A stretch of 64,000 bases of DNA from an uncultured Porphyromonadaceae bacterium. GTDB lineage: Bacteria; Bacteroidota; Bacteroidia; Bacteroidales; Muribaculaceae. The stretch lies in assembly GCA_902468245.1 (NCBI GenBank), contig CABQXY010000028.1, positions 412,802 through 476,801 on the forward strand. The letters are read 5' to 3'. The position numbers were made by a program, and so were the translations under genes. The notes beneath the pieces were generated by a model. It did no database searches and was not told where the DNA came from. It saw only the letters and a list, made by a program, of their open reading frames with translations. Below, piece by piece: positions 16,496-27,108 of this stretch; the first letter of the stretch is position 1, and each line of letters begins with the position of its first letter.

Positions 16496-16599
16496 TGATA
16501 AGACGTCTTATAGAGCCAGTCGCCCCATACCGGGGCCTCAAACTCTTGTTGCTACAAATTTACAAAATTCATGCCAATCCACCAAATAAGTAATAGTGA

Positions 16600-17721
16600 C
16601 TATATCTTATAGCGGAGTAGATCGCGGCATCCTGACAGGACTTCGTCGATGATATTAAGACAGCGTTTTTCGGGCAATCGGATTTTAGTGCCTACTGCTA
16701 TGAAATCGGATAATTTAGGATGTCCTGTGCCATTGACGGAGGTAGCATGCTCCCCGTTATATCCATCGGTGCATAATGTAAGGTCGTATGCAGGCGCGAG
16801 CCTCCACTGCCAATTACAGTTATCGTCATCCGGAATTACGTAAAAACTGAAATTCTTACAATGGTCGTCTTTATTGTCAGTGAAGTAATTGAATAGCATA
16901 CGGCGGTACATCTGCTCAACATCGTCCAGGCGTTGGGTCACATAGCCAGTGAGGGCAAGCAGATTGGCATAGTCCATGAAGGGCTGACTGAGTGAAAGCC
17001 CCAGCAGAGCACCGGCGGTGGCTGTATGTAACCTGTTGGTATTTAAATCTATATCAAATCTGCGCGATGCGAAATACTTGTCGTTGATTAGCTTAAAGTC
17101 CGGGACAATGATGCCGCATCTGCGGGCAGTGTAATTATACAGATATTCCTGTCTCCCGATGTCTTTGGGGTCATAGATATGCCGGAATTTTACAATCCAA
17201 TGTCCCTCCGAGTCGGAAAATACAGCTTTGGGACGCGCACCTCCGCTATTGCCGCTGTTATACAGCAACAATCCGGCATCGTTGTCCTGTTGTTCCTTAA
17301 GTACTTCAAGGGCCATCTGCTGGAGTTTGTCGAAATCGGCTATTGATTCTTCTGCTTCCAGAGTTATGGCAGGATTGTAAGTTAGAGCACCCATTCCGTT
17401 GTCTCCTACAATGGCGAGCCGGTCAAGCGAGGAAAGATCGGAATCGTTGATACCCTGACGCATAAGTGTCTTATGCAGCAGATATCGACCATATCCATCG
17501 GGCAGACTGTCTTCGAAAATTCCGAAATTGCCTTTAAACGGCTGGGGCTTCGCTACAAAGACACCGGGCTGCAACGGCAGCTCAAGTGGAGATATGCTGA
17601 ATCCATCGGCTATCCATGCGGAGTCGTATTCAAATACGTTGAGACGGTTGTCGGGAGTGAGCGACAACGTTCCGACACGTCGCCCGCGAAACAGGACTTG
17701 CAGTTTATCGGTATGTGTCAT
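16600..17721 (-). CDS. hipA: HipA-like type II toxin (serine/threonine kinase)
   Basis: 373 aa; HipA N-terminal and C-terminal regions (LAPAYDLT motif); 4-nt overlap with upstream HTH gene. Confidence 0.8.
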   Translation of the reverse strand: MTHTDKLQVLFRGRRVGTLSLTPDNRLNVFEYDSAWIADGFSISPLELPLQPGVFVAKPQPFKGNFGIFEDSLPDGYGRYLLHKTLMRQGINDSDLSSLDRLAIVGDNGMGALTYNPAITLEAEESIADFDKLQQMALEVLKEQQDNDAGLLLYNSGNSGGARPKAVFSDSEGHWIVKFRHIYDPKDIGRQEYLYNYTARRCGIIVPDFKLINDKYFASRRFDIDLNTNRLHTATAGALLGLSLSQPFMDYANLLALTGYVTQRLDDVEQMYRRMLFNYFTDNKDDHCKNFSFYVIPDDDNCNWQWRLAPAYDLTLCTDGYNGEHATSVNGTGHPKLSDFIAVGTKIRLPEKRCLNIIDEVLSGCRDLLRYKI

Positions 17722-18095
17722 TTCTTAATGGGATAAGCGCGTTTGTCATCTTTTTTGCGGCGGATCAGCTCAAGTTCCTGCATGGTGTTGAATTTTGCCG
17801 TGCTGAACAAATTTCTGATGTCGGCTATGTAACCTAATGCCATGGCAAGCTTTATAAGCGACTCAAAGGCAATAAGACCGGTACGTTCAAAACGGGCCAC
17901 CGTAGAAATGGGTACTCCTGACCGCTCGGCTATATGTTGCCGTGTGATATTCCTTTCTACACGTCGTTTGCGGAAATTCTCGGCTACCTGCTTTGCAATA
18001 TCATCAGGATTATCGAGTGTATAGCTATCTAATAATGATAATATGTTATCATTAATTCCATTTTGCGCCATAATACAGATAATATTTTGACACAA
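17718..18095 (-). CDS. XRE-family helix-turn-helix protein, HipB-like antitoxin
   Basis: 125 aa; HTH ITRQHIAERSGVPISTVARFE; precedes and overlaps hipA as in canonical hipBA. Confidence 0.7.
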   Translation of the reverse strand: MCQNIICIMAQNGINDNILSLLDSYTLDNPDDIAKQVAENFRKRRVERNITRQHIAERSGVPISTVARFERTGLIAFESLIKLAMALGYIADIRNLFSTAKFNTMQELELIRRKKDDKRAYPIKK

Positions 18096-18167
18096 ATATA
18101 CGCAATAAATCTGAATTATGCAAGCTGATTAATAGCTTTTTTTACCCATTGTGCATTGTGTCTGTAA

Positions 18168-18491
18168 TCATCCTAAGACCTTCAGGCCGATAATGGATAG
18201 GATAAGGGTGGTGATGAAGAATATGCGCCAGAATGTGGCCGGCTCGTTGAAGAAGAATATGCCGACCAGCACCGCGCCTACGGCTCCGATGCCGGTCCAG
18301 ACTGGATAGACCGTGCCGATAGGAATCTTTTGCGAGGCCTTGGCCATCAGGAACATGCTCAGTGCCAACGCCACTACGAAACCGACCCACCAGCCCGTCA
18401 GCTCATGGCCGGTGGCCGTCCTGGTTTTGCCGAGGCAGAAGGTGAAGGCAACCTCCATCAGCCCGGCAAGTATTAGGATTATCCAACTCAT
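18168..18491 (-). CDS. sugE: SMR-family small multidrug resistance exporter, SugE/Gdx subgroup (quaternary ammonium/guanidinium exporter)
   Basis: 107 aa, 4 TM; MSWIILILAGLMEVAFTFCL..., conserved Glu in TM1. Confidence 0.85.
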   Translation of the reverse strand: MSWIILILAGLMEVAFTFCLGKTRTATGHELTGWWVGFVVALALSMFLMAKASQKIPIGTVYPVWTGIGAVGAVLVGIFFFNEPATFWRIFFITTLILSIIGLKVLG

Positions 18492-18622
18492 AATAATATA
18501 TGAACATTACTTGTCCTGTCGAGGGCTGCAAGACTATCTCGGCGTCTCCTTCCAAGGATGCTGCAAAGTTACAACTTTTTCCTGAACAAATAAACTACGA
18601 ATCTTGCGAAACTAATAATAAG

Positions 18623-19408
18623 TTATCTCATGAAATATATGGCTTTCACCACGCCGTAGGGATAGGGTCTGATGTCGGATGAATATCCGAACTTTTGGGG
18701 ATTAAACATCTCTATGATTAATCCTATGAGTTCGTTTTCCGTTGGTTGCTTTGTGATTTGCACATCACATGATATGGGGAAACTGTATTCGATTCCTCTG
18801 TACAAAAATTGTATTGATATAGTTGGGTCACTACCTGTAAGATTCTTGACTACTGAAACATTCTGGGTGTCAAGAGTCCTGGTAGCAGTCCCGGCAGTTC
18901 CGGTGGACTTAAAAACTGCCGGTACCACCACAGTCGCGGTGCCTGTTTTACCGTATATTATATTATTGAAAGCCTTTGTGCCGTATTTGTCAATTCCCGG
19001 GATATCTGGACGGATGTCCTTTTTCCATTCATTGCCGAAACTCCCTGTCAGGTAATCCATGATGGCAGTGTTGACCTTGACCATCTGCCGTTCGGAACAT
19101 TCCACAACACATCCGAAATCCATCCATCCTATGCCATATTTGGCTTTGAACTTTTCTCGTTTACCCGGATAGACTACAGGGGCTATGCTTCCCTGCAGCA
19201 TCAGATTGGCTTTGCCCGATTTTAAATCCTGTTTAATTTTCGGAATGAAATATTTGGCATCATCCTTACTCGCAGATAATTCCCATATTGCATATATCGA
19301 ATCTTGGAATAACTGATCTCTTATATACTGAAACTTGTTTTGAGCACCGAGGTTTCCGCAATATGCCAATACGGCACATATTGCTAATATTTTATGTAAT
19401 CTTCTCAT
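18623..19408 (-). CDS. hypothetical secreted protein (start chosen at internal Met giving signal peptide MRRLHKILAICAVLAYCGNLGAQ)
   Basis: ORF track gives 18623-19717; upstream 103 codons lack coding character and the Met at 19408 begins a clear signal peptide; low GC. Confidence 0.45.
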   Translation of the reverse strand: MRRLHKILAICAVLAYCGNLGAQNKFQYIRDQLFQDSIYAIWELSASKDDAKYFIPKIKQDLKSGKANLMLQGSIAPVVYPGKREKFKAKYGIGWMDFGCVVECSERQMVKVNTAIMDYLTGSFGNEWKKDIRPDIPGIDKYGTKAFNNIIYGKTGTATVVVPAVFKSTGTAGTATRTLDTQNVSVVKNLTGSDPTISIQFLYRGIEYSFPISCDVQITKQPTENELIGLIIEMFNPQKFGYSSDIRPYPYGVVKAIYFMR

Positions 19409-19546
19409 ACACAAAAGTACTAAGAATAATTGACATAGCCAAAAGTCTAATCTCGAAATACTTGAATTTACAAAAATGAATTTGTATAAATGAAATTCAA
19501 TCATTAATTTTATCGGAGAATTTAGGCATTTATAAAACATCAAGAT

Positions 19547-20161
19547 ATGACACCTGAAGAATTTCTGCAAAAATTTGACTGGATGGGACGGTTCAAGTAT
19601 TCTGTCCAGACCATAAAGGATAATAAAACGATATGGGTATTGAAGGCTTCCGACGGGTCTTATCCCATTTCCGAGGGTAGACCTAAAAAGTTTTGTGTCT
19701 GGGCTGAGGAAATCCATGCTCGGTATGAGTGTACAGACGGCTGGGAAGATACAATCCCGACTCCAATGTCGTATGAAGACTTCATGTCGGAGATATATCC
19801 GGTGTTGAAAAAGCGTAAGGTGAACATAATACTTGTGTCGCCTATGAGAAATAGGCGAGGAAAGGAGGTGTCGGTATCGGAATTCATTGATAAAATCGGA
19901 ATGGCAACAGGTGCTGATCCTAATAATAATATTCCTATTGAGCCGGAACCCGAACTAATACCCATCGACAGAAAGGTCCTGAAAGAGTTGTTTGACTATC
20001 TTGACGAGGCGTTAAGTATAGAAGAATGTAATAATGATTTGCGTCTGACCATATCCTATCTCAGGAATCATGGAGTCCGGAATATAGACAATGCCGTGGC
20101 GTGGCTTCAATCCAAAGGAGGATACTGCGACTGCGAGGTTTTGGCCAACGTGGAAGAGTAA
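19547..20161 (+). CDS. hypothetical protein, CRISPR-array adjacent (two-part; C-terminal W..GGYCDCE motif)
   Basis: 204 aa, low-GC ORF with reasonable coding bias; no family confidently recognised. Confidence 0.5.
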   Translation: MTPEEFLQKFDWMGRFKYSVQTIKDNKTIWVLKASDGSYPISEGRPKKFCVWAEEIHARYECTDGWEDTIPTPMSYEDFMSEIYPVLKKRKVNIILVSPMRNRRGKEVSVSEFIDKIGMATGADPNNNIPIEPEPELIPIDRKVLKELFDYLDEALSIEECNNDLRLTISYLRNHGVRNIDNAVAWLQSKGGYCDCEVLANVEE

Positions 20162-20288
20162 TGCTTGAGAAGCGGCTATTACTTTGACAACAGCTAATTA
20201 ATACACCGCATTCCACAAGTAGCTGATAGATGTAAACAAGATCAATTTTTATATTACGATTCATGGCAAAGACGGAATCAAGGAAATA

Positions 20289-21166
20289 GTTCTATTATTT
20301 ATGCACTACGAATCACATCGACGATACGGCCATCTATCCGTTGGTCCCCGTTGTGATTTGCTTTAGATTTATTATTTTTGCACTACGAATCACATCATTG
20401 GTTATGAAATTGAGAATCTCGTGCTTGTTGTGATTTGCTTTAGATTTATTATTTTTGCACTACGAATCACATCAGGAGCTGTCGTTGGTGTATGATGCCG
20501 TAAGTTGTGATTTGCTTTAGATTTATTATTTTTGCACTACGAATCACATCGTACTTTTTGTGGAAACCGTCCTCGCCATCGTTGTGATTTGCTTTAGATT
20601 TATTATTTTTGCACTACGAATCACATCTATTGTAGCATTTTGCTATGGATCTGATTAGTTGTGATTTGCTTTAGATTTATTATTTTTGCACTACGAATCA
20701 CATCTTAATAGCCACCGTTAAAGAGCTGGCCCCGGTTGTGATTTGCTTTAGATTTATTATTTTTGCACTACGAATCACATCTGCAACAAACGAAAGTACT
20801 GGTGAATCAGCGTTGTGATTTGCTTTAGATTTATTATTTTTGCACTACGAATCACATCTAGACTTTGCATGACCAGCGTCACCTCCTCGTTGTGATTTGC
20901 TTTAGATTTATTATTTTTGCACTACGAATCACATCTTGTTAATTCGTCTCCCAGCTCCAGCCCCTGTTGTGATTTGCTTTAGATTTATTATTTTTGCACT
21001 ACGAATCACATCGTGCGCCTGTAACGTTGACGACGACATAAGGTTGTGATTTGCTTTAGATTTATTATTTTTGCACTACGAATCACATCATTAGCAATAT
21101 TAGACTGACCAAGAGGAGTGTTGTGATTTGCTTTAGATTTATTATTTTTGCACTACGAATCACATC
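20289..21166 (+). CRISPR. CRISPR array: 5'-truncated repeat (20289-20319) + 11 identical 47-nt repeats GTTGTGATTTGCTTTAGATTTATTATTTTTGCACTACGAATCACATC, with eleven 30-nt spacers; period 77 nt
   Basis: Repeats start at 20350, 20427, 20504, 20581, 20658, 20735, 20812, 20889, 20966, 21043 and 21120. Eleven unique 30-nt spacers lie between repeat units, e.g. S1 GACGATACGGCCATCTATCCGTTGGTCCCC and S11 ATTAGCAATATTAGACTGACCAAGAGGAGT. The repeat length and GTTGTGATTTGC start are typical of Bacteroidetes type II-C arrays. Confidence 0.95.
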
Positions 21167-21196
21167 ACAATGCGTGTATTGTATTGATATTCACAG

Positions 21197-21243
21197 TGGT
21201 ATAGTGATTCGTAGAATAAAAAAACGCTCCTTTAAATTGGAGC
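21197..21243 (+). repeat. probable degenerate terminal CRISPR repeat (preceded by a 12th spacer-like 30 nt, 21167-21196)
   Basis: GTATAGTGATTCGTAGAATAAAAAAACG aligns loosely with GTTGTGATTTGCTTTAGATTTATTATTTTTG at the expected 77-nt phase. Confidence 0.35.
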
Positions 21244-21256
21244 GTTTTTATTTTCT
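21214..21256. terminator. bidirectional intrinsic terminator between CRISPR array and cas2
   Basis: A-run, AACGCTCC-TTTAAATT-GGAGCGTT hairpin, T-run (TTTTTATTTT); works for the plus (array) and minus (cas operon) transcripts. Confidence 0.6.
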
Positions 21257-21324
21257 GTAGGAGAATAGCATTCTCCACATTATTAGAGATATCTTCTATC
21301 TTTTAGAAATCATACTCTGCTATA

Positions 21325-21675
21325 TCAGAATAGTTCAAGTTGGATGGCATCCGGAAGTGGCGTGCTTTTCTTCGTTCCTTCAAATAGCAAGATCTCTCTA
21401 AACTGGCGTTCGGTTATTGTAATGATACATACCTTACCCTCATTGGGTATCTGTTTTTTTATTCTGTTTACATGAACATCTGTATTTTCTCTGGAGGCGC
21501 AGTTTCTGACATATATGGAATACTGAAACATCGTGAAGCCATCGGAGATCAAATATTTACGAAAATCCGAGGCATCCTTTCGTTGCATCTTTGTTTCCGT
21601 AGGGAGGTCAAACATGATTAATATCCACATGAGTTGATAAGAACTAATTCTGTCGTAGGAAACATAATGCGCCAT
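21325..21675 (-). CDS. cas2: CRISPR-associated endoribonuclease Cas2
   Basis: 116 aa; MWILIMFDLPTETK...YSIYVR typical Cas2 N-terminus; immediately downstream of cas1. Confidence 0.85.
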   Translation of the reverse strand: MAHYVSYDRISSYQLMWILIMFDLPTETKMQRKDASDFRKYLISDGFTMFQYSIYVRNCASRENTDVHVNRIKKQIPNEGKVCIITITERQFREILLFEGTKKSTPLPDAIQLELF

Positions 21676-21693
21676 ATTGCGATGGATTAACTA

Positions 21694-22611
21694 TTAAATC
21701 GGGATTCTCGGATAGATCACCTTCCTGCTTTCTTTTGAGAAACATTTTGCAAGAGAAGATGTTGTTATGGATGCCGCCACGAGCAGAGGACGTCGGATTT
21801 TTCCGAAACTCACATCCAAATTAGGAATTGTCAGTAACGTTTTCTTGGCTTCTTTGTCCAAGCCATTATTCAGATTCTGTTTCAACACCATATCCGCGAC
21901 AAGTAAATCGACATACGGCCTATATGGTTCCATAATATCATCAGCGAGGCAGTTGGCATTATATTTATTGGAATGATGGATTCCGATTAAAGGCGTCAGA
22001 CCACTCCCCACGATACTACGTGCAATGATTGCTCGTAATATGGCGTATCCATAATTTAGAAAAATGTTGATGTCATCTTCTCCGTCCTTATCTCTCCTGA
22101 ATCTGCCTGATTCCATGAACATATTCCGCCAATAATAAGCTGCAGCCCTTCCTTCAAGATTTTCCGGATCTCCACTTCTTACACTTGACGCCCATTTAAT
22201 CATATTCCCGATATTCAGTCCAGTTACCTGGCGTAGAACAGCCCCTTGATTCAGAATTTTTGCCGATACTGTCTGCTGCCATAATTGCTTCTTCAATGGT
22301 AGTGATGCTTGAATCTGAGCGATAGACTTCTCCGATTGAAGTGTATGGGCTTCAAGAGGAAGAATCATATTTGCCGGCATGTGTTTAGAGTCGCAGAAAA
22401 TGACTCCTATATTATTCTGTATCAGTTCCGAAACAAGAGATGATGTGAGAGTGACCTGACCACTCTCTATCATCATAATTCCGATATCTTCAATCGGACG
22501 AGTTATGACTTCTTCCTCACCTGTAAGCTCATTCTCCCTCTTTATTACCAGTTGCTTTAATTTTAAAGATAGATAAGCTTTCTTAGAGAATACCAATGTC
22601 TTCTTTATCAT
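21694..22611 (-). CDS. cas1: CRISPR-associated endonuclease Cas1 (type II)
   Basis: 305 aa; Cas1 integrase fold motifs; 2-nt gap after cas9 stop. Confidence 0.9.
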   Translation of the reverse strand: MIKKTLVFSKKAYLSLKLKQLVIKRENELTGEEEVITRPIEDIGIMMIESGQVTLTSSLVSELIQNNIGVIFCDSKHMPANMILPLEAHTLQSEKSIAQIQASLPLKKQLWQQTVSAKILNQGAVLRQVTGLNIGNMIKWASSVRSGDPENLEGRAAAYYWRNMFMESGRFRRDKDGEDDINIFLNYGYAILRAIIARSIVGSGLTPLIGIHHSNKYNANCLADDIMEPYRPYVDLLVADMVLKQNLNNGLDKEAKKTLLTIPNLDVSFGKIRRPLLVAASITTSSLAKCFSKESRKVIYPRIPI

Positions 22612-22612
22612 A

Positions 22613-25600
22613 TTACGACATATTGTCGAAGTCTATCTCTCCGAGTTGTGAAATGCTGATCTTATGAGGATTAAGGGCTAAGAAAGAGCTTATGGATTGG
22701 GTATTATAAAACATTTTCATCTCCTTATCTCCTTCATTGATTTTGGCTGTAGTATCTGTATGGAACTTGAAACTATAATTATTTGGTGACAATTTCCACA
22801 CTCGATATAGGTGCCTGTTGATAGCAGAATGATTCCGAGATGCGATGGCGTCGTTCCATTCATCTTCACTCAGTCCAAGCACTATCATCTCATTTCTCTG
22901 TAGGCTCATGACAAACTGAGAGTCATGTGGCGGCAATTTGGTTATAATCTCCTGAATATCGGAATTGTCTTCCATATTCGCAATCATATCCCATACCGAA
23001 GCCGGATCGGTTATGATTACAGGAATCCCATAGCGTTTCCTCTTGATGCCATCCCAGAACGATACAACAGACTCAGTAATCTTTCCATCCGGATTCTGAT
23101 AGAATGCAAGATGGTGATTGTTTCTGGTTTGAGAGAAACCGATTTCTTTTCCGGTTAGAGTTTTCTTGACGCATGCCAACGTATCTGCTTTAAGTCCTGT
23201 AAAGCATCTGACATTACGTATCGCACACTTCCCATTCTCATCCGAGCAAATCGAATTTTCAATCAGACTTTTAACGAAATCCTTCTCTCCAACTTCGTCA
23301 AAACGCTCCTGGAACTTACGGCGGATGGATAAATCAACAATACTGTTGATATCCGATTGCTTTTTTATGCTTTCAATCGGATATTTGATAACAAACTCCT
23401 CTCCGTAGCAATCAGCCTGTTCTACTGTATGTCCATTGACAACCAAAGGAGACTTCTTAAGTTGTTTCAAGATCTTACTAATATTTCCGTCGCTTTCTTT
23501 CAGTAGATTCAAAACTGCAGTTCTGATATTGTTATCCACTATGGCATCAGGATTGTTGAATATATGTTTCAGATTCTTCTTACCGATTGGAACCTTAATT
23601 TTTCCGTAAACGGAATCTTTGGTGAGGGCAGCACGAGGAACAAGAATGCCTTTTTGGACACATTTGCGCTTCCCGTTACGCTTTACATATCTCTTGCCGG
23701 GAGTGGCAAGTTTTTTACCGGGTTTGAAGGAAACCGAGATGTTATTGACAGCATCCTGCACTTCCTTGACAGATATATGAGGTTGTGCCGACGCCCACTT
23801 ATCCAGATTCACCTTATCTGAAGCTGACTTATCCGAATCTGCATTCAGGGTATTAAGTCGCTGAATGTATCCCTGTCGCGTAAGTGCTATTACAAGAGCG
23901 TCTATGGCATGATGGCGATGATCCATTCGTTTTGTCCAGTCCTTGATTCGTTCTGTCGTATGTGTCTGGGCATGGGTAGTGTATTCAACTTCTTCAACAA
24001 GATCTGCATTGCGGTATTTGGGCAGATTTAGGTCATGCAGCACGTTGTCATACCCCCACACATGACGGAAGAAACTTGTTACAGCCCCGGATGAAGCATA
24101 GACATTTCTGAACATTTGGGAGAGAATCTCACGTGCTTTCTTGGCGATATACTGGCTTTCGCGCAGATCCCTCTCTATAAAATCCGAAGGAATTTCCGAG
24201 GAAGACATCTTAAGATTGTTGCGCTTAGTCTTTGAGATCTTCCCATTCTTATAAAGTTCCTCAACACGGTCGAGATATGCATTGAATTCGGAATCACTCT
24301 TGGTTTTCATGAAATCATAACCGGTGAGCGCACCCTTAGCCTTGTTACACTCACGACATGAGCATACCTTGTTGGAGAAACTGTCATCGAATAAGCGGGA
24401 GCGAGGTATGATGTGTTCTATCTCGTATCCATGACCTTCGATAAATTGAGATGGAGTAACCACAGCACCGCAATATATACATTTATTCCCGGTCTCCTGA
24501 AGCATCCGCATCTTCTGTATACGGCGACGGGTAGGAGAGATGTTGAGTTCCGCTATCATGTCGGCGAATTTCTGATTCTCTTTCTCCTGCTTGTTGATTC
24601 TTGTCGTAGTTTCCGCTCTATCTTCTTTATTCTGTTTCAGTTCCCGGGCAAGTTCTATGCGTACCTCATCGATTTCGCCAAAACGGTCTGTCACAGCATT
24701 AGTCAGATTAATGGTCTGATTGATGATTTTCTCTACAATAGGCTGGCGGAGTTCTCCTTTGTTAAGCCTGTCAAGACGAGGCTTAAGTGTGCGGGCATTG
24801 TTCTCCTCTGCAGTCATGGAGCCGGAATGATTCACCCCGCACAGCTCGCAAGCTTTACTATAGCCATTACCCTCCATGAGATGAGGGAGGATACGTCGAA
24901 TAAACTTTGCGGATTTATTGGCATACCCATCTTTTACGAAGTCTATGGCATACAGCTTCTCAAGAGTCTCAGCATCTGAGATATTGAATTTTCGAGAAAG
25001 ACAATCAAACAGTTCTTTTTTGTCTTTGATGGAGTATAGTGTATGCCATAGCTGATAAAGCGGCTCGTCAAGATACGACAGATCGATTACAGGTTCTAAA
25101 GCACCTGTATTTTTGTCGACCTTATCGGTTATCTTGACCTTGAACTTCAGTAGTTCCTCTTTCCCGGGGTAATCAGCCAATGCTTTGGCAATGGCGCAAT
25201 ACGTCTTATTCCCTTGTATGCCTTTAGCAAGAGCTTGATCTGATTTAAATCCGTCAGCCTGCTTCAGACCTAATAGGCCGAGGAGTTTGCTTTCCGATAG
25301 TCTGTCGTTGGTATTTAGATAATCGAATATCCGCAGTCTTTCCTCAGGATTAATCGGGAATTCATACTGTAACTTTCTCACGTCTGTTGGCGTTGTATCC
25401 ATCCCGTCGAACAATGACGGTTGCACAATTTTCCTTCCTTTTAGACGTGGATTTACCAGACGAATGTTATTAATCGATTCGTACAATTTGCAAACCTGTG
25501 CTAATGGCGATGACTTAGGTGTTACCTTCGGTCCGCTATCCACTTCTTTACCTGCGGAATTTTTAAAGGTTCGCTTTTCAAAATCGCAGTAGGATACAAG

Positions 25601-26341
25601 GTGCTTGCACGATTTAAGCGGACGTTGAAAGAATATGAGATTCTTCAACTTTGTGATATTCTCATCAGTAAGGATTTCGGGATAGAATTCCTTCTGAGCA
25701 TTTATGATGGCATCAAATTCCTGAGCATACGCCTCTCGAGGGAATACTTCTTCTTTTATCCTATATGTGTATTGTTTCTTGCCTCGACTACTTTCTGCCT
25801 CGGATTCTTTCAACTTGTTGTAGAAAAATTGACCGATAGTCTGATTTAAGGCTTTGATTTCGGAGTATCGATTGTTTACGCGTGTTACGTATTCTGTCTG
25901 TTTGGAATCACCCATGTCGGACTTTGCATGGCGATAACCTCTGCGCTTATTTAGATGCAACAAAACACGTGCGATGTCTGATTTAGAAAGTTGTATGCCG
26001 GGAGTAGACGCATCGCTCCGGAGTTTCCAGGTCTCAAGTGGATTCAGAGGCGGAAAGACTTCTGATTTATCCACCATTCCGAGTTCTATAAGGAATGATC
26101 TGAGAGATTCCCGACGTTGCTGGTATCTATCAAGCATTTTACGCGCGGTTCTTCTTGCGGTACGTTGCGAACAGGGCGTCTCACCCTTTCCGGCTGAAAA
26201 ATCAGAAGCCTCATTGTTTTCGTATTGAATAATGCGGCTGCCTAATCCCAAAAGTTGAATGACATTGGAATCTTTGTCTGATATATCAATTACACTCCAA
26301 CCTATTGATGCTGTTCCGAGGTCAAGTCCGAGTATTTTCAT
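22613..26341 (-). CDS. cas9: type II-C CRISPR-associated endonuclease Cas9
   Basis: 1242 aa; RuvC-I MKILGLDLGTASIGWSVI, arginine-rich bridge helix SQRTARRTARKMLDRYQQRR, HNH motif EIEHIIPRS...CSCRECNKAKG, RuvC-III HHAIDALVIA; no csn2/cas4 in locus. Confidence 0.95.
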   Translation of the reverse strand: MKILGLDLGTASIGWSVIDISDKDSNVIQLLGLGSRIIQYENNEASDFSAGKGETPCSQRTARRTARKMLDRYQQRRESLRSFLIELGMVDKSEVFPPLNPLETWKLRSDASTPGIQLSKSDIARVLLHLNKRRGYRHAKSDMGDSKQTEYVTRVNNRYSEIKALNQTIGQFFYNKLKESEAESSRGKKQYTYRIKEEVFPREAYAQEFDAIINAQKEFYPEILTDENITKLKNLIFFQRPLKSCKHLVSYCDFEKRTFKNSAGKEVDSGPKVTPKSSPLAQVCKLYESINNIRLVNPRLKGRKIVQPSLFDGMDTTPTDVRKLQYEFPINPEERLRIFDYLNTNDRLSESKLLGLLGLKQADGFKSDQALAKGIQGNKTYCAIAKALADYPGKEELLKFKVKITDKVDKNTGALEPVIDLSYLDEPLYQLWHTLYSIKDKKELFDCLSRKFNISDAETLEKLYAIDFVKDGYANKSAKFIRRILPHLMEGNGYSKACELCGVNHSGSMTAEENNARTLKPRLDRLNKGELRQPIVEKIINQTINLTNAVTDRFGEIDEVRIELARELKQNKEDRAETTTRINKQEKENQKFADMIAELNISPTRRRIQKMRMLQETGNKCIYCGAVVTPSQFIEGHGYEIEHIIPRSRLFDDSFSNKVCSCRECNKAKGALTGYDFMKTKSDSEFNAYLDRVEELYKNGKISKTKRNNLKMSSSEIPSDFIERDLRESQYIAKKAREILSQMFRNVYASSGAVTSFFRHVWGYDNVLHDLNLPKYRNADLVEEVEYTTHAQTHTTERIKDWTKRMDHRHHAIDALVIALTRQGYIQRLNTLNADSDKSASDKVNLDKWASAQPHISVKEVQDAVNNISVSFKPGKKLATPGKRYVKRNGKRKCVQKGILVPRAALTKDSVYGKIKVPIGKKNLKHIFNNPDAIVDNNIRTAVLNLLKESDGNISKILKQLKKSPLVVNGHTVEQADCYGEEFVIKYPIESIKKQSDINSIVDLSIRRKFQERFDEVGEKDFVKSLIENSICSDENGKCAIRNVRCFTGLKADTLACVKKTLTGKEIGFSQTRNNHHLAFYQNPDGKITESVVSFWDGIKRKRYGIPVIITDPASVWDMIANMEDNSDIQEIITKLPPHDSQFVMSLQRNEMIVLGLSEDEWNDAIASRNHSAINRHLYRVWKLSPNNYSFKFHTDTTAKINEGDKEMKMFYNTQSISSFLALNPHKISISQLGEIDFDNMS

Positions 26342-26453
26342 GATGACTATATAATTTATAATTATAAATTGCAGTTTTGATTACAAAACTAATAAAATAA
26401 GTTCATGAAAACAATTTTTTGCACTATTATTTGAATAATTCGTTTTTTTGATA

Positions 26454-26461
26454 TAAATTTG
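26454..26461 (+). promoter_or_regulatory. Bacteroidetes sigma-A -7 element (TAAATTTG = TAnnTTTG) with TTTG -33 element 20 bp upstream (26430-26433), driving the tracrRNA
   Basis: match to the TAnnTTTG/-33 TTTG consensus, positioned 6 nt upstream of the anti-repeat. Confidence 0.45.
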
Positions 26462-26465
26462 TGAC

Positions 26466-26558
26466 GCAAAAATAAACTAAAGCAAATCACAATAAGGATT
26501 ATTCCGTTGTGAAAACATCTGAGGAGGGAAATCAAATGATTTCTCTCCTGTCTTTTAA
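26466..26558 (+). ncRNA. tracrRNA: predicted tracrRNA (divergent from cas9)
   Basis: 26468-26492 AAAAATAAACTAAAGCAAATCACAA is the reverse complement of repeat nt 1-24 (22/24 with one bulge). It is followed by the nexus-like TAAGGATTATTCCG. Then comes the hairpin GGAGGGAAATCA-AA-TGATTTCTCTCC (26523-26548) and TGTCTTTTAAT. Confidence 0.65.
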
Positions 26559-27000
26559 TGTTGGATGCTTATATAATTATGACGTAATGCCCAAATATGG
26601 CATCGGTTCAACGCAGTAAAATAAAGAGGGTGGGCCCGACTGATAAGAAGTGCTGGTAATGGGAGACAGATGCCGTCGCTAAAGCTTCGGGCTGGAACAA
26701 AAACAGATGGCACAGCAAAAAAAGAGCGGGTGATGGTGGAAATAATAGGTGTCGCGGATATCGGGTGGATGTGCAAAATATAAGCGGATAAATGGTAGGA
26801 TTGGAATAGAGTTGTCCAAAATATTTTGTAAGTGGTTGAAAATAAGATATGTGGAAATTTATAAAGGTTGAAAAGTTTTCCAAAACGAAAATCTTTTGAA
26901 ATTTTTAGGCGTTTATAGTTGTCGTAAAGAATTAATTTTGTAACTTTGTATCGGAATTGGGATGTGCTCAGTTTAGATACCATTTCGATATCATTCCGAT

Positions 27001-27108
27001 GCCGTTAATGACAGTCAAAACACGCATGCCGTTAATGACAGTCAAAACACGCATGCCGTTAATGACAGTCAAAACACGCATACCGTTAATGACAGTCAAA
27101 ACACACAG
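27001..27108. repeat. 4 x 27-bp perfect/near-perfect tandem direct repeat (GCCGTTAATGACAGTCAAAACACGCAT) ending 28 bp upstream of nrdD ATG
   Basis: copies at 27001, 27028, 27055 (identical) and 27082 (3 substitutions). Confidence 0.9.

What the first reader, a model, noticed from the sequence alone, without database searches (positions are those of the whole stretch)
20162..26570. Complete, compact type II-C CRISPR-Cas system: tracrRNA, cas9 (1242 aa), cas1, cas2, 11-spacer array
cas9 (RuvC-I/II/III + HNH), cas1 and cas2 are contiguous on the minus strand with 2-20 nt gaps. There is no csn2 or cas4, which places the locus in subtype II-C. The array of 11 identical 47-nt repeats with uniform 30-nt spacers lies downstream of cas2. 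No repeat has a mutation, and the repeat start GTTGTGATTTGC matches the Bacteroidetes II-C repeat class, which suggests an active or recently active array. At 1242 aa this Cas9 is smaller than most described Bacteroidetes II-C Cas9s (about 1400 aa). It also differs from the Neisseria/Campylobacter II-C clade (about 1000-1080 aa). The orthologue, its PAM and its guide architecture are probably uncharacterised.
Basis: partly seen in the sequence, partly recalled or inferred. Interest (0 to 1): 0.75.

Follow-up and report, generated by a model that had tools for sequence, protein, structure and literature searches.

The report
Ordinary Bacteroidales type II-C CRISPR-Cas9 locus
This is a complete, apparently working CRISPR-Cas9 immune locus of the kind common in Bacteroidetes; it is an uncharacterised but otherwise ordinary member of a known family.

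Summary
On the minus strand lie cas9 (1242 aa), cas1 and cas2. Beyond cas2 lie 11 identical 47-nt repeats, a 12th degenerate repeat and 11 spacers of 30 nt. A tracrRNA lies upstream of cas9, and there is no csn2 or cas4, so the locus is type II-C.

The tools add the layout. The tracrRNA and the array are both read on the plus strand, so crRNAs are transcribed towards cas2. Each repeat carries a Bacteroidetes -7 promoter box (TAnnTTTG). The degenerate cas-distal repeat is the "extra" repeat and can no longer pair with the tracrRNA. The conserved cas2-proximal flank is the likely spacer-integration side. This is the published II-C architecture.

The tracrRNA core matches that of nine biochemically characterised "clade X" Bacteroidetes Cas9s, so the guide architecture is known.

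The Cas9 belongs to a populous shorter class (about 1140-1310 aa). This class lacks a ~125-aa REC insertion and keeps a Cys-rich HNH motif. I found no characterised member.

No protospacer was found, so the PAM stays unknown.

Verdict: new member of a known kind, low to moderate interest.

The parts
20273..20319 (+). Degenerate 'extra' (oldest, cas-distal) repeat. Its first 16 nt have diverged and its last 31 nt are kept.
   Evidence: It has 16 mismatches to the consensus, 13 of them in the first 16 nt. Its duplex with the tracrRNA is only -14.5 kcal/mol, against -31.7 for the consensus repeat. The same degenerate repeat is present in relative L081.
20320..21166 (+). CRISPR array: 11 spacers of 30 nt alternating with 11 identical 47-nt repeats. 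The crRNA sense is the plus strand, read towards cas2.
   Evidence: Exact repeat positions and spacers are. The sense strand follows from the tracrRNA orientation. TAnnTTTG occurs at repeat position 24 in every full repeat.
21167..21219 (.). Conserved cas2-proximal flank of the array (leader-like). This is the presumed side of spacer integration.
   Evidence: It is conserved in L081, L082 and L083, and recognisably in L084, whose Cas9 is 77% identical. The degenerate repeat lies at the opposite end of the array.
21220..21259 (.). Bidirectional intrinsic terminator between cas2 and the array.
   Evidence: An 11-bp stem has a T-run on both strands. It is conserved in relatives.
21325..21675 (-). 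cas2 (116 aa)
   Evidence: Pfam CRISPR_Cas2 at 6e-19, TIGR01573 and PADLOC Cas2_II at 2e-44.
21694..22611 (-). cas1 (305 aa), type II/NMENI class
   Evidence: TIGR03639 at 293.6 bits against a cutoff of 120, covering the full length. PADLOC Cas1_II at 2e-108.
22613..26341 (-). cas9 (1242 aa). Catalytic residues: RuvC-I D7, RuvC-II E563, HNH H643 and N666 with C621/C624/C662/C665, RuvC-III H811 and D814. The C-terminal WED/PI region starts at about residue 880.
   Evidence: TIGR01865 at 477 bits and Pfam RuvC_III plus HNH_4. The catalytic residues are invariant in 20-67 homologues. In the AlphaFold model (mean pLDDT 77.7) every listed Foldseek PDB match (top 50) is a Cas9, CbCas9 first at E 1e-39.
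26384..26391 (-). Putative -7 promoter box (TAGTTTTG) for the cas operon, 43 nt upstream of the cas9 ATG.
   Evidence: This is a motif match only. It has not been tested.
26454..26461 (+). -7 promoter box (TAAATTTG) of the tracrRNA, with TTTG about 20 nt upstream.
   Evidence: Motif match. In 61 of 79 homologous tracrRNAs, TAnnTTTG occurs at the same place, against 2 of 79 in a control stretch.
26461..26562 (+). tracrRNA, divergent from cas9. Anti-repeat about 26465-26493, nexus hairpin 26496-26505, terminator hairpin 26523-26548, U-tract 26553-26556.
   Evidence: Its own fold is -28.3 kcal/mol, z = -5.7. Covariance model R1 finds homologues in 79 of 85 sources, nearly all just upstream of cas9 on the opposite strand. 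96% of cells are paired, and 166 cells show a change on both sides against 46 in shuffles. Repeat and anti-repeat co-vary in L084.

Best explanation
This is a functional type II-C CRISPR-Cas9 adaptive immunity locus of a Bacteroidales bacterium. The closest Cas9s found in genomes are from Muribaculaceae.

Shown by the sequence and comparisons:
- Intact cas9, cas1 and cas2 lie on the minus strand.
- A tracrRNA gene lies divergently upstream of cas9, with its own Bacteroidetes-type promoter box and an intrinsic terminator.
- The array's repeats pair with that tracrRNA only if the array is transcribed on the plus strand, that is, towards cas2.
- A bidirectional terminator separates the two converging units.

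Inferred from the anatomy and from published II-C work:
- Each repeat carries its own promoter (a TAnnTTTG -7 box at repeat positions 24-31). Each spacer is therefore transcribed from the repeat upstream of it.
- The resulting crRNA consists of the spacer plus the 5' part of the next repeat. It pairs with the tracrRNA anti-repeat and loads into Cas9.
- Cas9 then cuts PAM-flanked matching DNA with its HNH and RuvC sites.
- New spacers enter at the cas2-proximal repeat, next to the conserved flank.
- The cas-distal repeat is the oldest, 'extra' repeat. It has lost its tracrRNA-pairing half, which prevents a useless guide being made from the upstream flank.
For: Genes and catalytic residues:
- Cas9, Cas1 and Cas2 are identified.
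- D7, E563, H643, N666, H811 and D814 are invariant in 67 relatives.
- In the AlphaFold model every listed Foldseek PDB match is a Cas9.

tracrRNA:
- The anti-repeat duplex is -31.7 kcal/mol, against -16.1 +/- 3.1 for shuffled repeats.
- The RNA's own fold has z = -5.7.
- Homologues are found in 79 of 85 sources at the same place and on the same strand.
- Covariation is strong.
- A promoter box sits at the model start in 61 of 79 homologues, against 2 of 79 in a control stretch.
- Repeat and anti-repeat changes in L084 are compensatory.

Repeat promoters:
- TAnnTTTG occurs at positions 23-26 on the strand opposite cas9 in 25 of 37 distinct Bacteroidota repeats. Shuffles give 2.0 on average and 7 at most.

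Published support:
- II-C repeats carry promoters, spacers are acquired at the last repeat, and the extra repeat is mutated mainly in its first 15 nt (PMC12080349).
- Repeat-encoded promoters are reported in Flavobacterium II-C arrays (PMC10309648).
- Metatranscriptomes show the B. fragilis 47-nt II-C array transcribed facing the cas genes (PMC4911918).

Activity in the lineage:
- The 11 repeats are identical.
- The window shares no spacer with L082 or L084 (88% and 77% Cas9 identity), and the single spacer of L081 (95%) is not in the window array.
- The leader-like flank is conserved.
Against: - No protospacer was found for any spacer, so there is no direct sign of a target or a PAM. Searches covered the phage and plasmid collections with the whole array, 8 spacer 22-mers in IMG/VR and 2 spacer 24-mers in metagenomes.
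- No expression data exist for this organism. The promoters and transcription starts are motif-based.
- The -33 element of the repeat promoter is poorly placed. TTTG lies only 12 nt upstream of the -7 box.
- The -7 box of the extra repeat is mutated (TATTTATG), and relative L082 keeps only 14 nt of its terminal repeat. The oldest spacer may therefore be poorly expressed.
Confidence: 0.9

Rival explanations
1. The layout is the classical, II-A-like one. The array is transcribed from a leader promoter between cas2 and the array, on the same (minus) strand as the cas genes, and crRNAs are minus-strand RNAs.
For: The array lies directly downstream of cas2, with a conserved leader-like flank. This is the default assumption for CRISPR arrays.
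Against: - The tracrRNA strand is fixed by its promoter box, terminator and covariation. Its anti-repeat can pair only with plus-strand repeat RNA.
- A terminator stands between cas2 and the array on the minus strand.
- Promoter boxes in the repeats lie on the plus strand. Of 37 related repeats, 25 carry the box on that strand and 3 on the cas strand.
- Published II-C and B. fragilis data agree with plus-strand transcription.
Confidence: 0.04
2. The locus is an inactive relic: a horizontally acquired island that no longer acquires spacers or interferes.
For: - No protospacer was found for any spacer.
- The locus lies in a low-GC island, 36-47% GC against 55-59% in the flanks.
- The assembly of close relative L081 shows only one spacer.
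Against: - All three ORFs are intact and full length against their family models, and the catalytic residues are intact.
- The 11 repeats are identical.
- Spacer content differs completely between strains with 77-95% Cas9 identity.
- The tracrRNA promoter, anti-repeat and terminator are all intact.
- The missing protospacers are expected, because the phages of these uncultured gut Bacteroidales are poorly sampled.
- L081 comes from a de Bruijn graph assembly, in which arrays tend to collapse.
Confidence: 0.06
3. The shorter Cas9 class marks a mechanistically distinct II-C variant, for example with different guide handling or a need for an unrecognised partner.
For: - The short class lacks a ~125-aa REC insertion.
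- It carries a CxxC...[C/H]xxC signature in HNH that is absent from all 19 long-class sequences.
- Identity to the nearest solved structure, CbCas9, is only about 20%.
Against: - The tracrRNA core, repeat class, locus order and orientation are the same as in the long class.
- No extra gene lies within the operon.
- Neighbouring genes differ between relatives.
Confidence: 0.05

Closest known systems
Clade X Cas9 orthologues of Bacteroidetes (Gasiunas et al. 2020, PMC7606464: Cca1, Cga, Cme1, Ffr, Ghy2, Orh, Phi, Psp, Wvi)
   Same: - The repeats are 45-50 nt and start GUUGUGA(U/A)UUGCUUU.
- The tracrRNA core CACAAUAAGGAUUAUUCCGUUGUGAAAACAU matches, followed by a single terminator hairpin.
- The systems are type II-C with cas9, cas1 and cas2.
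   Different: - The characterised enzymes are 1345-1535 aa, and this one is 1242 aa.
- Long-class genome relatives are 30-34% identical to it.
- It lacks the ~125-aa REC insertion after residue 145.
- It has Cys residues in HNH that the long class lacks.
- Its PAM is unknown, and clade X PAMs vary widely.
CbCas9 (Chryseobacterium), the PcrIIC1-associated II-C Cas9, PDB 8iyq/8wr4
   Same: It is the best sequence match and the best fold match among solved structures (E 2.4e-51; Foldseek E 1e-39). It is a Bacteroidota II-C Cas9.
   Different: - It is 1442 aa and only about 20% identical.
- It works with the accessory PIN-domain protein PcrIIC1. No such gene lies in or next to this operon.
Neisseria meningitidis / Campylobacter jejuni type II-C systems
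   Same: - The gene set is the same.
- Promoters lie inside the repeats.
- The array is transcribed towards the cas genes.
- Spacers are acquired at the transcript-distal repeat.
- The extra repeat is mutated (PMC12080349).
   Different: - Those systems have 36-nt repeats, Cas9s of about 1000-1080 aa and sigma-70 type -10 boxes.
- This one has 47-nt repeats, a Bacteroidetes TAnnTTTG box and a different tracrRNA scaffold.
- The Cas9 matches are only partial (E about 1e-44 over residues 458-767).
Flavobacterium columnare / F. psychrophilum II-C (Fp2Cas9; PMC10309648)
   Same: This is a Bacteroidetes II-C system. A repeat-encoded promoter drives array transcription towards the variable end, and the tracrRNA lies upstream of cas9.
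   Different: - These are long-class Cas9s from a different order (class assignment from my own knowledge; their lengths were not checked here).
- Their PAMs (for example NNAAAG for Fp2Cas9) cannot be transferred to this enzyme.

Membership tests
Type II CRISPR-Cas (Cas9 systems) | A single large effector with a split RuvC domain (motifs I-III), an inserted HNH domain, and intact catalytic residues. | tested here: met
   TIGR01865 at 477 bits against a cutoff of 100, covering residues 3-1235. Pfam RuvC_III and HNH_4. D7, E563, H643, N666, H811 and D814 are invariant. Every listed Foldseek PDB match is a Cas9.
Type II CRISPR-Cas (Cas9 systems) | A tracrRNA with an anti-repeat complementary to the CRISPR repeat, followed by structured 3' hairpins. 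| tested here: met
   The duplex is -31.7 kcal/mol against -16.1 +/- 3.1 for shuffles. The nexus and terminator are supported by covariation in 79 homologues. Rfam itself has no match, even at E <= 1.
Subtype II-C | Cas1 and cas2 are the only adaptation genes. There is no csn2 (II-A) and no cas4 (II-B). | tested here: met
   The operon is cas9-cas1-cas2 with gaps of 1 and 18 nt. Flanking ORFs from 12.8 to 31.5 kb give no Csn2 or Cas4 hit in Pfam, NCBIfam or PADLOC.
Subtype II-C | The array is transcribed towards the cas genes from promoters inside the repeats, and the extra (oldest) repeat lies at the transcript-proximal end. | tested here: inconclusive
   The sense strand is fixed by the tracrRNA. 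A TAnnTTTG box is present in every full repeat and in 25 of 37 related repeats, against 2.0 expected. The cas-distal repeat is degenerate. Actual transcription starts cannot be tested without RNA data.
Clade X Cas9 / Bacteroidetes 47-nt repeat class (Gasiunas 2020) | Repeats of 45-50 nt and the clade-specific tracrRNA/sgRNA scaffold. | tested here: met
   The 47-nt repeat starts GTTGTGATTTGCTTT. The tracrRNA core matches those of Cca1, Cme1, Orh, Psp, Wvi and others. The exact core is present in 51 of 79 family tracrRNAs.
Clade X Cas9 / Bacteroidetes 47-nt repeat class (Gasiunas 2020) | Phylogenetic placement of the Cas9 protein inside clade X. | tested here: inconclusive
   All the closest genome relatives are Bacteroidota Cas9s that share the scaffold. 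Mean identity is 0.47 within the short class, 0.56 within the long class and 0.37 between them. No tree was built with the published clade X full-length sequences, because only truncated sequences were available.
PcrIIC1-associated II-C systems (CbCas9 type) | An accessory PIN-domain gene, pcrIIC1, in the locus. | tested here: not met
   There is no additional ORF in the operon. No PIN-domain hit was found among the neighbours.

The most novel reading that the evidence does not exclude
The 1140-1310-aa 'short class' of Bacteroidota II-C Cas9s, to which this enzyme belongs, may be a distinct and still uncharacterised lineage. It lacks the ~125-aa REC insertion, retains a Cys4/Cys3His zinc-finger-type HNH, and uses the same clade X guide scaffold. 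Its PAM range or biochemical properties could differ from those of the characterised long-class enzymes.
Probability: 0.5. Interest if true: 0.35.

Novelty: new member of a known kind. Interest (0 to 1): 0.25.

Why it matters
The biology matters little, because every element follows the published type II-C plan for Bacteroidetes. Two points have modest practical value.

First, the enzyme represents a populous Cas9 class for which I found no characterised member. Its sgRNA can be designed directly from published clade X scaffolds, so PAM and activity tests would be straightforward.

Second, the locus is a clean example for annotation pipelines. The crRNA strand runs opposite to the cas genes, and the "degenerate" repeat marks the transcript-proximal, old end of the array. 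Default tools often get both wrong.

At 1242 aa the enzyme is not small enough to compete with the Cas9s of about 1000-1080 aa already in use.

Tried and rejected
1. Protospacer search and PAM inference gave no credible hit.
- The whole array was run by BLAST against 50,697 phage records and 72,556 plasmids. The plasmid hits are similar CRISPR arrays.
- The arrays of relatives L084 and L082 were run against the phage records.
- Eight spacer 22-mers were searched in IMG/VR.
- Two spacer 24-mers were searched in metagenome contigs.
- No self-target was found in the window with up to 6 mismatches.

2. An inverted copy of the repeat's 3' part lies in the leader (21204-21222). I considered it as a second anti-repeat or a regulatory hairpin. 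I rejected this because it is not conserved in close relatives.

3. A TAnnTTTG box lies on the cas9 strand inside the anti-repeat. I considered it as a repeat-derived cas9 promoter. It is present in only 11 of 79 relatives, so it is not supported.

4. I considered that the degenerate repeat is kept specifically for its promoter half. Support is weak. Its -7 box carries a mutation, and L082 keeps only 14 nt of its terminal repeat.

5. Rfam gave no tracrRNA match at the gathering threshold, nor at E <= 1.

Residues 1-1200 were modelled instead.

7. ORF 26555..26983 (142 aa) has no family hit, and L082 differs from it by a 59-nt indel. It is not a gene.

8. The apparent loss of cas2 in L081 is a gene-calling gap. 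The cas2 sequence is present.


Full report
**Observation**

Three minus-strand ORFs are packed with gaps of 1 nt and 18 nt: 26341..22613 (1242 aa), 22611..21694 (305 aa) and 21675..21325 (116 aa).
- The first is Cas9. It matches TIGR01865 at 477 bits against a cutoff of 100, aligned over residues 3-1235, and Pfam RuvC_III and HNH_4.
- The second is a type II Cas1 (TIGR03639, 294 bits).
- The third is Cas2.

Beyond cas2 lie 11 exact copies of a 47-nt repeat at 20350..21166 with a period of 77 nt. A 12th copy at 20273-20319 has 16 mismatches, 13 of them in its first 16 nt. This gives 11 spacers, all 30 nt long.

No Csn2 or Cas4 is encoded in or beside the operon. The neighbours are:
- on the array side: a DUF2750/DUF2695 protein, a FEKKY-domain ORF, an SMR pump, a HipA/HTH pair, an S1/P1 nuclease and a UvrD helicase;
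- on the cas9 side: NrdD, NrdG and an FAD-dependent protein.

**tracrRNA and strand of the guide RNAs**

The plus strand at about 26465-26493 is complementary to the 5' 33 nt of the repeat.
- The predicted duplex is -31.7 kcal/mol. Five hundred shuffled repeats give -16.1 +/- 3.1 kcal/mol, with a best value of -26.7.
- Downstream follow a short GGA/UCC hairpin and a 26-nt GC-rich hairpin with a U-tract. The RNA's own fold is -28.3 kcal/mol, z = -5.7.
- Immediately upstream lies TAAATTTG (26454-26461), a match to the Bacteroidetes -7 promoter consensus TAnnTTTG, with TTTG about 20 nt further upstream.

I built a covariance model from this RNA and its counterparts in two relatives.
- It finds a homologue in 79 of 85 sources. 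In nearly all of them the homologue lies within about 250 nt upstream of cas9 on the opposite strand.
- On that alignment 96% of cells are paired, and 166 cells show changes on both sides of a pair against 46 in shuffles. Sliding the partners by 1-3 columns collapses the signal. The alignment was fitted to the model, so these counts lean towards the model's structure.
- In 61 of the 79 homologues, TAnnTTTG occurs at the model start, against 2 of 79 in a control stretch.
- In relative L084 (77% Cas9 identity), the repeat and the anti-repeat carry matching changes.

The tracrRNA is therefore real and is transcribed on the plus strand. It follows that crRNAs must also be plus-strand RNAs. The array is read towards cas2, converging with the cas operon. 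A bidirectional intrinsic terminator (21220-21249) stands between the two units.

**Repeat promoters, polarity and the extra repeat**

Every full repeat carries TATTTTTG at positions 24-31 on the plus strand. Among 37 distinct repeats from related Bacteroidota loci, 25 have TAnnTTTG at positions 23-26 on the strand opposite cas9, and only 3 have it on the cas strand. Shuffled repeats give 2.0 on average and 7 at most.

This fits published descriptions.
- In II-C systems each repeat carries a promoter. Spacers are acquired at the last repeat relative to transcription. The first, oldest, "extra" repeat is often mutated in its first 15 nt, which weakens tracrRNA pairing (PMC12080349).
- Repeat-encoded promoters are reported for Flavobacterium II-C arrays (PMC10309648).
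- Metatranscriptomes show the B. fragilis 47-nt II-C array transcribed facing the cas genes (PMC4911918).

This locus matches that plan.
- The degenerate cas-distal repeat pairs with the tracrRNA no better than random sequence (-14.5 kcal/mol).
- About 60 nt next to the cas2-proximal repeat are conserved in relatives down to 77% Cas9 identity, as expected for the integration side.

Two weak points remain. The -33 element is poorly spaced in the repeats. The extra repeat's own -7 box is mutated, so the oldest spacer may be weakly expressed.

**Activity**

The catalytic residues D7, E563, H643, N666, H811 and D814 are invariant across 67 relatives. The 11 repeats are identical. The window shares no spacer with L082 or L084 (88% and 77% Cas9 identity), and the single spacer of L081 (95% identity) is not in the window array. 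This indicates turnover in the lineage.

L081 shows one spacer and the same degenerate terminal repeat. It comes from a de Bruijn graph assembly in which arrays can collapse, so I draw nothing from its short array.

**Targets and PAM**

No protospacer was found.
- The whole array was compared with the phage and plasmid collections.
- The arrays of two relatives were compared with the phage collection.
- Eight spacer 22-mers were searched in IMG/VR.
- Two spacer 24-mers were searched in metagenome contigs.
- No self-target exists in the window.

The PAM therefore remains unknown.

**Where this Cas9 sits**

Homologues are abundant. Of the 120 best hits, more than 100 are full-length proteins of 1233-1299 aa, at 47-95% identity. 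Among species-representative genomes the closest are Paramuribaculum (55%), Lepagella muris (49%) and Muribaculum (48%), followed by many other Bacteroidota.

ORF lengths in those loci fall into two groups.
- The first group is about 1140-1310 aa and is at least 34% identical to the query. It includes Muribaculaceae, Alistipes, Paludibacteraceae, some Chryseobacterium, Chitinophagaceae and Pedobacter.
- The second group is about 1350-1445 aa and is 30-34% identical. It includes Capnocytophaga, Prevotella, Flavobacterium and Epilithonimonas.

This sample is ranked by similarity to the query, so the proportions are biased towards the short group.

Two features separate the groups.
- A ~125-aa insertion after window residue 145, in the REC lobe, is present in the long group and absent in the short group.
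- A CxxC...[C/H]xxC signature in HNH (C621, C624, C662, C665) is present in about 40 of 48 short-group sequences and in none of 19 long-group sequences.

The nearest solved structure is CbCas9 (1442 aa), with E 2.4e-51 by sequence and 1e-39 by Foldseek on a model with mean pLDDT 77.7, at about 20% identity. CbCas9 works with the accessory protein PcrIIC1, which is absent here.

**Comparison with characterised systems**

Gasiunas et al. 2020 characterised nine "clade X" orthologues of 1345-1535 aa. They come from Capnocytophaga, Chryseobacterium, Flavobacterium, Ornithobacterium, Prevotella, Parabacteroides, Weeksella and two metagenomes. All have 45-50-nt repeats.

Their tracrRNAs share the core CACAAUAAGGAUUAUUCCGUUGUGAAAACAU. 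The window tracrRNA contains this core exactly, and so do 51 of 79 family members. The guide architecture is therefore already known, and an sgRNA can be designed by analogy.

I found no characterised member of the short group in the searched literature. That is absence of evidence in an incomplete library.

**Verdict**

The suggestion that the guide architecture is uncharacterised is not supported. "Compact" holds only relative to the characterised Bacteroidetes enzymes.

The locus is a new member of a known kind. It is an uncharacterised orthologue from a common short class of clade X-type Cas9s, arranged and probably working exactly as published II-C systems do. Interest is low to moderate.

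Noticed in passing
window 26999-27104: There are four tandem copies of a 27-nt unit (ATGCCGTTAATGACAGTCAAAACACGC) about 30 nt upstream of the nrdD start (27137). Relative L082 has three copies in an otherwise highly conserved intergenic region. There is no Rfam match. The function is unknown; it could be a regulatory site array for nrdDG.
   Followed up: partly
window ~16500-27000: This is a low-GC island (36-47% GC against 55-59% in the flanks). It contains a HipA-like kinase and an HTH protein (16600..18095, minus strand), an SMR efflux gene, a FEKKY-domain ORF, a DUF2750/DUF2695 gene and the entire CRISPR-Cas locus. The HipA/HTH pair is absent at the same place in relative L081. The region appears to be a variable, probably horizontally acquired island.
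   Followed up: partly
window 21204-21222: The leader-like flank contains an inverted copy of the 3' part of the repeat (GTGATTCGTAGAATAAAAA, 84% complementary). It is not conserved in close relatives, so it is probably a chance match.
   Followed up: yes
window 26467-26474 (minus strand): A TAnnTTTG box lies on the cas9 strand inside the tracrRNA anti-repeat and points at cas9. It mirrors the repeat promoter. Only 11 of 79 related tracrRNAs have it, so it is probably a by-product of complementarity.
   Followed up: yes
window 24347-24481 (Cas9 residues 621-665): The HNH domain carries C621, C624, C662 and C665, a CxxC...CxxC zinc-finger-like signature. It is conserved in about 40 of 48 short-class Bacteroidota Cas9s and absent from all 19 long-class ones, including the class of the characterised clade X enzymes.
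   Followed up: partly
L082 11806-11872; L081 5344-5470: The terminal (oldest) repeats differ between strains. L082 keeps only 14 nt of its terminal repeat. L081 has the same degenerate repeat as the window but only one spacer, which may reflect assembly collapse. The window shares no spacer with either strain.
   Followed up: partly
window 26555-26983 (minus strand): This 142-aa ORF between the tracrRNA and nrdD has no family match, and L082 differs from it by a 59-nt indel. It is not a gene. Rfam also has no family matching this tracrRNA, although the RNA is conserved in 79 of 85 sources searched (the window and 84 related loci).
   Followed up: yes
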